From contig JAFZPM010000003.1 in the NCBI GenBank assembly GCA_017550335.1, positions 15,040-79,039 on the forward strand: a stretch of 64,000 bases of DNA, given 5' to 3'. This document shows positions 24,887-27,233 of the stretch, piece by piece. The notes beneath the pieces were generated by a model, which was given only the letters and a program-made list of their open reading frames with translations, was not told the DNA's origin and searched no databases. The DNA is from Paludibacteraceae bacterium (lineage in GTDB: Bacteria > Bacteroidota > Bacteroidia > Bacteroidales > Paludibacteraceae). Both the position numbers and the translations under genes were made by a program. Positions within the stretch are counted from its first letter, which is position 1, and every line of letters begins with the position of its first letter.

Positions 24887-26254
24887 TTACTTGATGATCT
24901 TCTCCAATTTATCCACGTTCGCTTTGATCACCTCATCCGGCAACTCGTAGTTGACGAGGTCGCCTTCGATGAACTGGTCGTAAGCGGTCATATCGATCAA
25001 TCCGTGACCGGAAAGGTTGAAGAGGATGACCTTCTCCTTGCCCTCTTCCTTAGCCTTCTTCGCCTCGCGGATAGCGGCGGCAATAGCATGGGAGGACTCT
25101 GGAGCAGGAATGATTCCCTCTGTGCGGGCGAACAAAGTAGCCGCCTCGAACGTCTCCAACTGAGGGATGTCCACACCCTTCATCATACCGTCCTTGATCA
25201 ACTGGCTGACGATGGTTCCCGCACCGTGGTAACGGAGACCGCCGGCGTGGATATGGGCTGGCGCGAAGTTATGACCCAACGTGTACATAGGCAACATTGG
25301 TGTGTAACCCGCCTCATCACCGAAGTCATATTGGAAGACACCACGGGTCAACTTAGGGCAGGAAGCCGGCTCAGCCGCAAAGAACTGCGTCTTCTTGCCG
25401 TCCAAGATGTTATGTCTCATGAACGGGAAGGAGAGTCCGCCGAAGTTGGAACCACCACCGAAGCAACCGATGATGATGTCTGGGTATTCGCCCGCCATCT
25501 CCATCTGCTTCTCAGCCTCCAAACCGATGATGGTCTGGTGGAGGGTCACGTGGTTCAAGACGCTACCTAACACGTATTTGCAGTTAGGTGTCTGCATGGC
25601 GAGCTCCACCGCCTCCGAGATGGCGGTACCCAAACTACCTTGGTAGCTAGGGTTGGCGGTCAAAATATCTTTACCGGCACGTGTGCTCATGCTTGGGGAA
25701 GCGATCACCTGCGCACCGAAGGTCTGCATGATGGAACGACGGTATGGTTTCTGGTGGTAGCTGACCTTTACCATGAAGACAGCCAACTCCAGTCCGAATG
25801 CCTTCGCAGCGTAGGAAAGGGCGGCACCCCATTGTCCCGCGCCGGTCTCCGTCGTGATGTTGGTCACACCCTCCTTCTTGCAGTAGTAAGCCTGCGCCAA
25901 AGCGGAGTTCAGTTTGTGTGAGCCGACAGGGCTGACGCTCTCGTTCTTGAAGTAGATGTGCGCTGGCGTATCCAACGCCTTCTCCAATCCGTAAGCTCTC
26001 ACCAAAGGCGTGGAACGATAGCTCTTGTAGAGGTCGCGTACCTCCTCAGGAATCTCGATCCATGCGTCCGTCGTGTTCAACTCCTGCTCGGAACACGCGC
26101 GGTTGAAAAGGCCGCACATCTCATCGACCGTGATAGGCTTCTTTGTCTGTGGGTTCAACATAGGAAGCGGCTTGTTCTTCATATCCGCTACGATGTTATA
26201 CCATTTCCTTGGTATCTCATTCTCCTGCAAAAAGAATCTTTTTTGTTTTTCCAT
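24887..26254 (-). CDS. trpB: TrpB-like PLP-dependent enzyme (tryptophan synthase beta chain, TrpB2 type)
   Basis: 455 aa. 'FFLQENEIPRKWYNIVADM', 'NESVSPVGSHKLNSA' (PLP lysine), and the long-form size are typical of TrpB2. No trpA or other trp genes are adjacent. Confidence 0.85.
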   Translation of the reverse strand: MEKQKRFFLQENEIPRKWYNIVADMKNKPLPMLNPQTKKPITVDEMCGLFNRACSEQELNTTDAWIEIPEEVRDLYKSYRSTPLVRAYGLEKALDTPAHIYFKNESVSPVGSHKLNSALAQAYYCKKEGVTNITTETGAGQWGAALSYAAKAFGLELAVFMVKVSYHQKPYRRSIMQTFGAQVIASPSMSTRAGKDILTANPSYQGSLGTAISEAVELAMQTPNCKYVLGSVLNHVTLHQTIIGLEAEKQMEMAGEYPDIIIGCFGGGSNFGGLSFPFMRHNILDGKKTQFFAAEPASCPKLTRGVFQYDFGDEAGYTPMLPMYTLGHNFAPAHIHAGGLRYHGAGTIVSQLIKDGMMKGVDIPQLETFEAATLFARTEGIIPAPESSHAIAAAIREAKKAKEEGKEKVILFNLSGHGLIDMTAYDQFIEGDLVNYELPDEVIKANVDKLEKIIK

Positions 26255-26290
26255 TTTGTTATGTTATTAAAAATATTGTTTCCTAAAAGC

Positions 26291-26326
26291 AAAAGAAAAA
26301 CCGCAGACCTCGGAGGCTTGCGGTTT
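26291..26326 (-). terminator. intrinsic terminator in the trpB2 leader (candidate attenuator)
   Basis: Minus-strand RNA AAACCGCAAGCCUCCGAGGUCUGCGGUUUUUCUUUUGCUUUU: a GC-rich stem (CCGCA/UGCGG plus CC/GG) followed by a U-run. It lies 36 nt upstream of the trpB2 ATG, and no upstream minus-strand gene exists for it to terminate. Confidence 0.65.
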
Positions 26327-26379
26327 CACTATCTTATTTGAATATGTCACATGCGCTAGTTGCAGACCCTCCGTTTGAA

Positions 26380-26436
26380 TCAGAATCTGCGCCACCAACG
26401 TTTGCTATAGTTCCTAAACACATTCATTAAAATCAT
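26380..26436 (-). CDS. candidate trp leader peptide (MILMNVFRNYSKRWWRRF, tandem Trp codons)
   Basis: Minus strand reads atg att tta atg aat gtg ttt agg aac tat agc aaa cgt tgg tgg cgc aga ttc tga. There are two adjacent TGG codons three codons before the stop. The stop lies 53 nt upstream of the terminator hairpin. An alternative start is at 26427. Confidence 0.55.
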   Translation of the reverse strand: MILMNVFRNYSKRWWRRF

Positions 26437-26515
26437 TCCTTTTTCTTATTCACAAAGGAATATAATTTTTTCTTACGCACAAAATAATTTCGAAAAAAAA
26501 CACAAATTTTACCAT

Positions 26516-26565
26516 AGCGGGTTCATTTACGATTTACTATACCGTAGATGCCAAAGCCTCACCAT
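26516..26565 (+). repeat. short copy of the dispersed 'CATTTACGATTTACTAT' intergenic element
   Basis: gcgggttcatttacgatttactataccgtagatgccaaagcc aligns with both ends of the longer copies at 45072, 47432 and 62147. Confidence 0.5.
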
Positions 26566-26678
26566 TCCTCATCGAACCGACACCCCTCCCCTCTTGCACA
26601 TCTCCGTTTTTTTTGCGAATATCGCGTAAGATAATGACAAGAGAGGGATTCACCCGCAACATACTAAGGATAAGCGAA

Positions 26679-27233
26679 ATGAAGATTACGTTCAATTCTC
26701 CCATCATACTGACATTCGCCTTTATATCGGCCATCGCCCTCGTACTGGGCGTACTCACCAACGATTGGACCACTAAGGTATTCTTCTCCACCTACGACTC
26801 GTCCCTGCTCAACCCCTTGACCTACGTGAGGAGCCTCACCCATGTGCTGGGGCACGCCTCCTTCTCCCACTACATCAACAATATGCTCTTCTTCCTACTC
26901 TTGGGACCCATCCTGGAGGAGAAATACGGCAGCAAGCGCATCATGATCGTCATCGGGGCAACGGCCATCATCACAGCCATCATCAACAGCATATTCACAT
27001 CCTGTGCCCTACTGGGCGCTTCGGGCGTCGTATTCGCCTTCATCATCCTGGCCTCCATGACCTCTTTCCGAGAGAAGGAGATACCCCTGACCTTCATCCT
27101 GATCATTTTCCTATACCTCGGACGGGAGGTCTTCAACGGAATATTCTCTTCGGACAATATCTCACAATCCGCCCACCTCATCGGAGGGGCGTGCGGCGCC
27201 ATCGCCGGATTCGTCTTCGCACCGAAGAAATAA
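26679..27233 (+). CDS. rhomboid family intramembrane serine protease
   Basis: 'HYINNMLFFLLLGPILEEKYG', catalytic 'GASGVVFA' and 'AHLIGGACG'. Start chosen at MKITFNSPIILTF. The track's TTG at 26613 or the ATG at 26634 are alternatives. Confidence 0.8.
   Translation: MKITFNSPIILTFAFISAIALVLGVLTNDWTTKVFFSTYDSSLLNPLTYVRSLTHVLGHASFSHYINNMLFFLLLGPILEEKYGSKRIMIVIGATAIITAIINSIFTSCALLGASGVVFAFIILASMTSFREKEIPLTFILIIFLYLGREVFNGIFSSDNISQSAHLIGGACGAIAGFVFAPKK

What the first reader, a model, noticed from the sequence alone, without database searches (positions are those of the whole stretch)
26255..26436. Trp-codon leader peptide plus terminator: a ribosome-mediated attenuator in front of the stand-alone trpB2
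Seen directly on the minus strand upstream of trpB2:
- A mini-ORF: atg att tta atg aat gtg ttt agg aac tat agc aaa cgt TGG TGG cgc aga ttc tga. This encodes MILMNVFRNYSKRWWRRF, with tandem Trp codons at 26392-26397.
- 53 nt after its stop lies a GC-rich hairpin followed by UUUUUCUUUUGCUUUU (26291-26326).
- The trpB2 ATG lies 36 nt further on.
- No upstream minus-strand gene exists that this terminator could serve.

The layout parallels E. coli trpL (..KGWWRTS-stop, then attenuator).

Alternative pairings are visible. CGGAGG at 26367-26372 is complementary to CCUCCG in the upper terminator stem. The pentamer UCUGC occurs both at 26361-26365 and in the 3' terminator arm, and both copies are complementary to GCAGA, which overlaps the leader's last codons.

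Leader-peptide attenuators have been predicted in some Bacteroidetes amino-acid operons in comparative studies. Finding one on an orphan TrpB2-type gene would tie this enigmatic paralogue directly to Trp limitation.
Basis: partly seen in the sequence, partly recalled or inferred. Interest (0 to 1): 0.62.

Follow-up and report, generated by a model that had tools for sequence, protein, structure and literature searches.

The report
Tryptophan leader attenuator controlling stand-alone trpB2
A tiny gene with two adjacent tryptophan codons and a switchable stop signal sits in front of a lone tryptophan-synthase-like gene (trpB2) in a rumen Paludibacteraceae bacterium. It is a well-conserved example of a known kind of switch on an undescribed target, and it links this puzzling enzyme to tryptophan shortage.

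Summary
The minus strand holds an 18-codon ORF (26436-26380, MILMNVFRNYSKRWWRRF) with UGG-UGG at 26397-26392. An intrinsic terminator follows (26326-26298, U tract to 26285), and the trpB2 ATG is at 26254.

Folding gives the three classical alternative helices:
- 1:2 is the anti-antiterminator. It starts 2 nt after the Trp codons.
- 2:3 is the antiterminator. It appears only when a ribosome is placed on the Trp codons.
- 3:4 is the terminator.

W-rich mini-ORFs with a terminator precede trpB2 in 39 of 126 upstream regions examined, against 1 of 126 on the reverse complement. All three helices keep pairing, with compensatory changes.

A model built from trpB2 leaders finds only one other site in this genome, the leader of trpEGDCFBA. 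Contigs from five rumen metatranscriptome runs start at 26412-26434 (four at 26432-26434); four of them run through the terminator into trpB2.

The kind is known: E. coli trpL, and the predicted Bacteroid-trp leader (Rfam RF01692) on trpB/trpE. Rfam models stay below threshold here, and I found no paper describing a leader on trpB2.

Nine related genomes have lost the whole trp operon but keep leader plus trpB2. That supports a Trp-starvation-induced indole-salvage role.

No experiment exists. Verdict: first reading supported; a new member of a known kind; moderate interest.

The parts
26480..26483 (-). Candidate -33 promoter element TTTG
   Evidence: Sequence. It lies 19 nt upstream of the -7 box. 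The Bacteroidetes promoter consensus is from my own knowledge. The equivalent element is conserved in relatives.
26453..26460 (-). Candidate -7 promoter box TTCCTTTG (consensus TAnnTTTG). Predicted transcription start is near 26446.
   Evidence: Sequence. Relatives carry TAtaTTTG, TAtcTTTG or TAccTTTG at the same place. Contigs from five metatranscriptome runs begin at 26412-26434 (four at 26432-26434), and none covers 26435-26620.
26380..26436 (-). Leader ORF MILMNVFRNYSKRWWRRF plus stop. A second in-frame ATG lies at 26427.
   Evidence: W-rich mini-ORFs are conserved upstream of trpB2 in 39 of 126 regions, while the rest of the peptide varies.
26392..26397 (-). Tandem Trp codons UGG-UGG, the sensing site
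   Evidence: These columns are invariant in alignment A2.
26382..26390 (-). Segment 1 (GCAGAUUCU), the 5' strand of the 1:2 anti-antiterminator. It starts 2 nt after the Trp codons and includes the first two bases of the stop codon.
   Evidence: MFE fold. In A2 the helix is 91% paired, with 4 pairs changed on both sides.
26362..26373 (-). Segment 2 (CGGAGGGUCUGC). It pairs with segment 1 when there is no stall. It pairs with the terminator 5' arm when a ribosome stalls.
   Evidence: Constrained folds. 2:3 is 81% paired against 33-56% for slid controls. Compensatory variants seen: CGGAGG/CCUCCG, UGGAGG/CCUCCA, GGUGGAU/AUCCACC and AGGAGGAU/AUCCUCCU.
26311..26326 (-). Segment 3: terminator 5' arm plus loop (AAACCGCAAGCCUCCG). 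Positions 26321-26311 form the 3' strand of the antiterminator.
26298..26310 (-). Segment 4: terminator 3' arm (AGGUCUGCGGUUU)
   Evidence: Terminator hairpin of -17.1 kcal/mol. 88% paired, with 3 pairs showing compensatory changes.
26285..26300 (-). U-rich tract UUUUUCUUUUGCUUUU of the intrinsic terminator (its first three U also close the stem)
24887..26254 (-). trpB2: stand-alone TrpB-like PLP enzyme, 455 aa, the regulated gene
   Evidence: NF009057 at 697 bits, TIGR01415 at 604 bits, PF00291. The canonical trpB1 sits in trpEGDCFBA on another contig.

Best explanation
This is a classical ribosome-mediated (leader-peptide) transcription attenuator that makes trpB2 expression depend on charged tRNA-Trp.

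Transcription starts about 10 nt upstream of the leader ATG, from a Bacteroidetes-type promoter. The leader is translated while the polymerase moves on.

When Trp is plentiful:
- The ribosome passes UGG-UGG and reaches the UGA at 26382-26380. Segment 1 (26390-26382) pairs with segment 2 (26373-26362), or the terminating ribosome covers segment 2.
- Segment 3 is then free to pair with segment 4.
- The terminator (26326-26298 plus U tract) stops transcription 36 nt before trpB2.

When Trp-tRNA is scarce:
- The ribosome stalls on the Trp codons and covers segment 1.
- Segment 2 (CGGAGG.U.UGC) pairs with the terminator's 5' arm and loop (GCA.A.CCUCCG) as soon as these are made.
- The terminator cannot form, and trpB2 is transcribed.

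What is shown: the sequence elements, the in-silico alternative structures, their conservation and covariation, the homology to the genome's own trp-operon leader, and co-transcription of leader and trpB2 in rumen RNA.

What is inferred: translation of the leader, stalling, and Trp-dependent termination.

The likely physiological sense is that TrpB2 makes Trp from scavenged indole. It is induced together with the trp operon, or in its place, when Trp runs short.
For: Anatomy
- All elements are confirmed in the sequence.
- Without a ribosome, the MFE shows the 1:2 helix (-19.3 kcal/mol locally) plus the terminator (-17.1).
- With the RNA masked up to 10 nt 3' of a Trp codon placed in the A site (the codon's own 3 nt plus 10) and cut before the terminator 3' arm, the MFE is the 2:3 antiterminator (-14.7 to -16).

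Conservation
- WW or WWW mini-ORFs with a terminator precede trpB2 in 19 of 30 genomes of the genus. They also occur in Prevotella spp., Alistipes, Ca. Enterocola and other Bacteroidales MAGs.
- Counts: 39 of 126 regions forward, 1 of 126 reverse complement, 0-6 of 126 for other residue pairs.
- The peptides vary apart from the W run.

Structure support
- Alignment-free test: the 2:3 duplex beats dinucleotide shuffles (p <= 0.05) in 30 of 39 leaders, and the 1:2 duplex in 22 of 39.
- On an 18-sequence alignment, the 1:2 core is 91% paired, 2:3 is 81% and 3:4 is 88%. Each has 3-4 pairs changed on both sides and each exceeds its slid controls.
- Other lineages use different sequences but the same logic. 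One example is ACUUGCAG / CUGUAAGU / ACUUACAG in L106-L109.

Paralogy
- Model R1, built from trpB2 leaders, hits only two forward-strand sites in the 3.47-Mb genome: this leader (103 bits) and the trpEGDCFBA leader MAYKVNMNIANSLYWWRPTLFQSRR (41 bits, E 2.7e-5).
- In other Bacteroidales, R1 hits leaders of trpB1, trpE and trpB2.

RNA
- In five independent rumen metatranscriptome runs, contigs begin at 26412-26434 (four at 26432-26434).
- Four run through the terminator into trpB2; one spans 24901-26433. The fifth (26277-26432) stops 14 nt past the U tract, short of the trpB2 ATG.
- No contig covers the promoter gap 26435-26620.

Biology
- Nine relatives lack trpE, D, C, F, B1 and A but keep an intact trpB2 with this leader.
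- The Bacteroides thetaiotaomicron TrpB2 homologue (BT_RS23500) gave an E. coli trpA mutant a growth benefit when spotted with wild-type E. coli, which the authors attribute to indole uptake (PMC11535334).
Against: - There is no experimental evidence of any kind for this element. The related Bacteroid-trp leader is described in its source only as presumed, and I found no paper testing it.
- At equilibrium the terminator stays the MFE structure even with the stall mask. The switch has to be kinetic, as in E. coli.
- The outer part of the 1:2 helix (CGUUGGU/ACUAGCG) is only 59% paired in relatives and is not conserved.
- The covariation statistics come from related sequences. The shuffle controls are therefore not probabilities.
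- The RNA data are assembled contigs. They show co-transcription but no terminated short transcript and no Trp dependence.
- Leader translation without a Shine-Dalgarno sequence is assumed.
- 11 of 30 genomes of the genus, and Bacteroides, Phocaeicola, Muribaculaceae and Segatella copri, have trpB2 without such a leader.
- Arg codons flank the Trp codons (KRWWRRF), so the signal may not be purely Trp.
Confidence: 0.87

Rival explanations
1. The mini-ORF is incidental. The conserved RNA is a protein- or ligand-binding switch (TRAP-like, T-box or riboswitch) or a constitutive partial terminator, and translation plays no part.
For: The structures alone (terminator and competing helix) could in principle be operated by a trans factor. 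Leader translation has not been shown. Bacteroidetes lack Shine-Dalgarno-led initiation, so the start cannot be judged from the sequence.
Against: - No T-box, riboswitch or other cis-regulatory family is hit at E <= 10. The only leader-type forward-strand hit is Trp_leader RF00513.
- The in-frame W run within an ATG-started short ORF is the one feature kept across lineages whose RNA sequences otherwise differ.
- The excess is specific to Trp: 39 regions against 0-6 for other doubled residues, and 1 on the reverse strand.
- Segment 1 starts 2 nt after the W codons, and the stop codon lies just before segment 2. That is the spacing ribosome sensing needs.
Confidence: 0.05
2. The leader is an upstream ORF that controls trpB2 at the level of translation (reinitiation or coupling) or mRNA stability, not transcription termination.
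For: Short leader ORFs close to structural genes are common in Bacteroidetes and have been proposed to boost translation (PMC4833913).
Against: - The leader stop is 125 nt from the trpB2 ATG. A strong hairpin with a U tract lies between them, which is far from the 11-14 nt distance discussed in that paper.
- The terminator and its competitor helix are conserved and covary.
Confidence: 0.04
3. The mini-ORF encodes a functional micropeptide, and the hairpin is simply its terminator. trpB2 would have its own promoter downstream.
For: A gene followed by a terminator is the default reading of ORF plus hairpin.
Against: - The peptide is not conserved apart from the W run: MILMNVFRNYSKRWWRRF, MNHYSNNSRRWWRWS, MQTIRTSNNWWWCNSI.
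- Only 36 nt separate the U tract from the trpB2 ATG, and no -7 box lies there.
- RNA contigs run continuously from the leader into trpB2.
Confidence: 0.02

Closest known systems
Bacteroid-trp leader (Rfam RF01692; Weinberg et al. 2010, PMC2864571, Additional file 1)
   Same: - It is from the same phylum.
- It has a short ORF with two or more UGG codons, usually followed by CGC, then a hairpin.
- It is presumed to act as a peptide-leader attenuator.
- Model R1, built from trpB2 leaders, cross-hits leaders of trpB1- and trpE-first operons. The two are therefore one broad class.
   Different: - The published motif is described as controlling trpB and trpE. In the relatives tested, its hits lie in front of canonical trpB1-trpE or trpE operons, never in front of trpB2.
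- RF01692 gives no hit in this genome at E <= 10. It reaches only 44 bits (cut-off 49) on one trpB2 leader elsewhere.
- The target here is a single stand-alone TrpB2-type gene.
Escherichia coli trpL attenuator (Rfam RF00513 Trp_leader)
   Same: - It has the same four-segment logic (1:2, 2:3, 3:4).
- Tandem UGG UGG is followed by CGC.
- The stop codon lies just before segment 2.
- An intrinsic terminator precedes the first gene.
- RF00513 aligns over its full length at 26291-26403 (25.4 bits). It scores 36-37 bits on trpB2 leaders of other Bacteroidales that end in WWRTCS (L108) or WWRTCSSKL (L109).
   Different: - The score is below the gathering threshold of 41 bits.
- The phylum differs, and the promoter and translation-start signals are Bacteroidetes-type.
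- It controls one salvage-type gene, not the trpEDCBA operon.
- No TrpR operator is evident.
The trpEGDCFBA operon leader of the same genome (G000:C45, about 41205-41062)
   Same: - It is a paralogous attenuator: MAYKVNMNIANSLYWWRPTLFQSRR, sharing UGGUGGCGC.
- It has a GGAGG box and a terminator with CUCC in its loop.
- It is the only other site found by model R1 (41 bits).
   Different: - Its leader ORF is longer (25 codons).
- Its helices are arranged differently.
- It controls the seven-gene de novo pathway.

Membership tests
Leader-peptide (ribosome-mediated) transcription attenuator, trpL type | Short ORF with clustered codons for the end-product amino acid | tested here: met
   18 codons with UGG-UGG at 26397-26392. 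The W run is conserved in orthologous leaders.
Leader-peptide (ribosome-mediated) transcription attenuator, trpL type | Intrinsic terminator between the leader ORF and the regulated gene | tested here: met
   Hairpin of -17.1 kcal/mol plus U tract, 36 nt before the ATG. 88% paired with compensatory changes.
Leader-peptide (ribosome-mediated) transcription attenuator, trpL type | Antiterminator mutually exclusive with the terminator | tested here: met
   The 2:3 helix forms in folds with a stalled-ribosome mask. It is 81% paired against 33-56% for slid controls, and p <= 0.05 in 30 of 39 leaders. In silico only.
Leader-peptide (ribosome-mediated) transcription attenuator, trpL type | Anti-antiterminator whose 5' strand lies within reach of a ribosome on the regulatory codons | tested here: met
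   Segment 1 starts 2 nt after the W codons. The 1:2 core is 91% paired, with 4 pairs changed on both sides.
Leader-peptide (ribosome-mediated) transcription attenuator, trpL type | Termination responds to supply of the charged tRNA | not testable with these tools
   This needs Term-seq, Northern blots or reporters with and without Trp. Metatranscriptome contigs show only read-through transcripts.
Rfam RF01692 Bacteroid-trp | Covariance-model score at or above the gathering cut-off (49 bits) | tested here: not met
   No match in the window region or in the whole genome at E <= 10.
Rfam RF01692 Bacteroid-trp | Bacteroidetes leader with at least two UGG codons upstream of trpB or trpE | tested here: inconclusive
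   The taxon and the UGG codons fit. The downstream gene is TrpB2-type, whereas RF01692 hits in relatives precede trpB1 or trpE. Model R1 links both groups.
Rfam RF00513 Trp_leader (enterobacterial) | Covariance-model score at or above the gathering cut-off (41 bits) | tested here: not met
   25.4 bits, full-length alignment, E 0.0036 for the 321-nt search and 0.056 for the 5-kb search.
T-box, TRAP-type or riboswitch control of trp genes | Match to a known RNA family, or (G/U)AG repeat arrays | tested here: not met
   No such Rfam hit at E <= 10. No triplet repeat array is seen in the sequence.
TrpB2 (TrpB-like PLP enzyme, NF009057 / TIGR01415) | Score above the curated cut-off, with the PLP-lysine motif | tested here: met
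   697 bits (cut-off 366) and 604 bits (cut-off 519). S112-H113-K114 are invariant in alignment A1.

The most novel reading that the evidence does not exclude
The leader-trpB2 module is a self-contained indole-to-tryptophan salvage unit induced by Trp starvation. Nine related Paludibacteraceae genomes (seven of them 97-99% complete) have lost trpE, D, C, F, B1 and A. Each keeps an intact trpB2 behind a WW or WWW attenuator. The attenuator is therefore maintained to gauge Trp supply for an enzyme whose only possible substrate source is external indole. This would be the clearest in-vivo-type evidence so far for the physiological role of stand-alone TrpB2. It would also describe an uncatalogued, widespread branch of the Bacteroidota Trp-leader class dedicated to trpB2.
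Probability: 0.55. Interest if true: 0.6.

Novelty: new member of a known kind. Interest (0 to 1): 0.42.

Why it matters
TrpB2 paralogues outside trp operons have been a puzzle since 2002. Proposals include indole rescue, use of O-phosphoserine, or an unrelated extra function. Merkl 2007 (PMC1854888) argued that separation from the operon suggests individual regulation and an additional function.

Here trpB2 is wired to the same signal as the de novo operon, stalling at Trp codons. Relatives that lost the operon keep this wiring. That is regulatory evidence that TrpB2 supplies tryptophan when it is scarce, most plausibly from indole, which is plentiful in rumen and gut.

There is also a practical point. 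These leaders fall below Rfam thresholds, so they are invisible to standard annotation. The alignment and model made here could seed a family.

The mechanism itself is textbook, so the surprise for a specialist is moderate.

Tried and rejected
- The simple terminator scan did not list this hairpin. The stem has an A/C mismatch, which is closed by a C-to-U change in L005 and L006. I relied on energy folding instead.
- Equilibrium folding of the whole leader with a stall mask still gives the terminator. The antiterminator appears only when the 3' arm is not yet transcribed, so the switch must be kinetic.
- RF01692 was expected to match, but it gives nothing in this genome.
- The outer helix between the W codons and ACUAGCG (26400-26394 with 26360-26354) is strong here but not conserved (59% paired). 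I left it out of the model.
- The plus-strand Atu_C9 and SSRC34 hits at 26262-26331 are just the terminator hairpin read backwards.
- The 'trpB2' with an attenuator in Corynebacterium diphtheriae (PMC1262725) is a second trpB copy in a trpB2A operon, not a stand-alone TrpB2-type gene.
- Merino, Jensen and Yanofsky 2008 could not be fetched.
- Literature searches for a trpB2 leader in Bacteroidetes found nothing.
- The RNA runs are held only as assembled contigs, so no terminated/read-through ratio could be measured.

Full report
**Observation.** On the minus strand an ATG at 26436 opens an 18-codon ORF, MILMNVFRNYSKRWWRRF, with a TGA at 26382-26380. A second in-frame ATG lies at 26427. The two Trp codons are at 26397-26392. 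A hairpin starts 53 nt after the stop (AAACCGCA.GCCU-CCG-AGGU.UGCGGUUU, 26326-26298). The tract UUUUUCUUUUGCUUUU runs to 26285.

The 455-aa ORF 26254-24887 begins 36 nt after 26291. It is a TrpB2-type enzyme: NF009057 at 697 bits, TIGR01415 at 604 bits, against 150 bits for canonical TIGR00263. The next gene upstream is a divergent plus-strand rhomboid protease (26613-27233), so the terminator serves no upstream gene. Everything else is exact.

**Organism and genomic setting.** The window is G000:C23:15040-79039 of a 3.47-Mb, 99%-complete genome. Its nearest named relative is a ruminal 'Paludibacteraceae bacterium' MAG (L113, 97% identical TrpB2). Public runs that hold the sequence are bovine and sheep gut metagenomes.

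The genome also has a complete trpEGDCFBA operon on contig C45. That operon has its own leader, MAYKVNMNIANSLYWWRPTLFQSRR, and its own terminator.

**Structure.**
- The 206-nt leader region folds at -55.7 kcal/mol, z = -4.0.
- Without a ribosome, the MFE pairs GCAGAUUCU (26390-26382) with AGGGUCUGC (26370-26362), and the terminator forms.
- I then placed a ribosome with a Trp codon in the A site, masking the RNA to 10 nt 3' of that codon, and ended the transcript before the terminator's 3' arm. CGGAGG.U.UGC (26373-26362) then pairs with GCA.A.CCUCCG (26321-26311). The energy is -14.7 to -16 kcal/mol, and the pairing consumes most of the terminator's 5' arm and loop.
- A ribosome at the UGA would cover CGGAGG and so favour termination. 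This is the E. coli trpL logic.
- At equilibrium the terminator always wins, so the decision must be kinetic.

**Comparative evidence.**
- trpB2 occurs in 48 of 61 related genomes.
- A WW or WWW mini-ORF followed by a terminator precedes it in 19 of 30 genomes of the genus and in several other genera of the family.
- Among 80 named loci from public genomes, the same arrangement occurs in uncultured Prevotella/Prevotellaceae, Alistipes, Ca. Enterocola and other Bacteroidales MAGs. It was not found in Bacteroides, Phocaeicola, Muribaculaceae or Segatella copri, nor in any of the loci whose titles place them outside Bacteroidota; one record labelled only 'uncultured bacterium' (L151) also has it.
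- The detector fires on 39 of 126 forward regions, 1 of 126 reverse complements, and 0-6 of 126 for other doubled residues.
- The peptides share only the W run, often followed by Arg.
- On an 18-sequence alignment (A2) the 1:2 core is 91% paired with four pairs changed on both sides. The antiterminator is 81% paired, against 33-56% when slid. The terminator is 88% paired.
- Without any alignment, the 2:3 duplex beats dinucleotide shuffles in 30 of 39 leaders, and the 1:2 duplex in 22 of 39.
- Other lineages implement the same three-way competition with unrelated sequences. Examples are ACUUGCAG / CUGUAAGU / ACUUACAG, and CUUGCAAC / GUCGCAAG / CUUGCGAC.

**Relation to known families.**
- Rfam's E. 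coli-type Trp_leader aligns end to end at 26291-26403 but scores 25.4 bits (cut-off 41).
- Rfam's Bacteroid-trp (RF01692) was described by Weinberg et al. 2010 as a presumed peptide leader controlling trpB and trpE in Bacteroidetes. It finds nothing in this genome.
- In relatives, RF01692 hits (40-49 bits) lie in front of trpB1-trpE or trpE operons, not in front of trpB2.
- On trpB2 leaders of other lineages, both Rfam models stay below threshold: 44 bits for RF01692 and 36-37 bits for RF00513.
- My own model R1, built from trpB2 leaders, finds two forward-strand sites in this genome: this leader and the trpE leader. Across 301 Bacteroidales genomes it picks up leaders of trpB1 (9), trpE (1) and trpB2 (3).
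- The trpB2 leader is therefore a branch of one broad Bacteroidota Trp-leader class. It is not catalogued, and I found no paper that describes it.

**RNA evidence.**
- In five rumen metatranscriptome runs, contigs begin at 26433, 26432, 26434, 26412 and 26432.
- Four of them continue through the terminator into trpB2. One spans 24901-26433, essentially the whole predicted transcript. The fifth (26277-26432, X37) ends 14 nt past the U tract, short of the trpB2 ATG.
- No contig covers 26435-26620, although the rhomboid gene beyond that gap is covered.
- This fits a start a few bases upstream, after the -33 TTTG (26483-26480) and -7 TTCCTTTG (26460-26453) elements. In relatives the -7 box reads TAnnTTTG.
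- The data show co-transcription. They do not show regulated termination.

**Biological meaning.**
- Searches with TrpA, and with a concatenate of TrpE, D, C, F and B1, show that G005, G009, G013, G017, G023, G024 and G027 (same genus) and G034 and G036 (same family) lack the whole de novo pathway. Each keeps an intact trpB2 with the leader.
- Within the genus, 7 of 8 operon-less genomes carry the leader, against 12 of 22 operon-bearing ones.
- The B. thetaiotaomicron homologue gave an E. coli trpA mutant a growth benefit only when spotted with wild-type E. coli, which the authors attribute to indole uptake (PMC11535334).
- Taken together, this supports TrpB2 as an indole-salvaging tryptophan synthase that is switched on by Trp shortage.

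**Caveats.**
- Everything mechanistic is inferred from sequence.
- 11 of 30 genomes of the genus have only a plain promoter before trpB2.
- The sequences compared are related, so the covariation statistics overstate independence.
- Two of the nine operon-less genomes are only 88% and 93% complete.
- Arg codons around the W codons may add a second input.

**Earlier notes of this scan.** Eight AI notes report the same arrangement in other genomes. They agree with this reading but are not independent evidence.

**Verdict.** This is a new member of a known kind, on an undescribed target gene, and of moderate interest.

Noticed in passing
G000:C45 about 41205-41062 (L059 14206-14063, minus strand); outside the window: The genome's trpEGDCFBA operon has its own Trp leader (MAYKVNMNIANSLYWWRPTLFQSRR) with a terminator and a GGAGG/CUCC competitor. 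Rfam RF01692 misses it. My model R1 finds it at 41 bits.
   Followed up: partly
L049, L053, L056 (G021, G004, G006) compared with L059: Within one GTDB genus the trp operon comes in two forms. One is trpE-first (this genome). The other is trpB1-trpE-first with an RF01692-like leader. The three genomes checked with the second form all lack the trpB2 leader.
   Followed up: partly
L108 1374-1471, L109 1362-1461, L120: Some Bacteroidales trpB2 leaders end in WWRTCS-stop (L108) or WWRTCSSKL-stop (L109). As I recall the E. coli sequence, they share UGGUGGCGCACUU with trpL (peptide ending WWRTS-stop). RF00513 scores them at 36-37 bits. This could be deep homology or convergence; it is undecided.
   Followed up: no
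L029 and L031 (G013, G023), compared with L030: About 190 nt of extra, non-coding-looking sequence lies between the attenuator's terminator and the trpB2 ATG. In these two genomes the leader sits at -363 instead of -173.
   Followed up: no
G015:C70:10929-12092 and L028: This genome has a lone trpB1-like gene (58% identity) and a leaderless trpB2, but no trpA, C, D, E or F. It therefore carries two orphan beta subunits.
   Followed up: no
G000:C9:63748-63813 (+) and G000:C8:98882-98998 (+): Two other WW or WWW mini-ORFs are followed by strong terminator-like hairpins (-19.9 and -17.3 kcal/mol). I did not check whether they are intergenic or what lies downstream.
   Followed up: no
window 26646-26900 (+): The divergent rhomboid protease gene is also represented in the rumen metatranscriptome contigs. 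This shows the organism is transcriptionally active in those samples.
   Followed up: no
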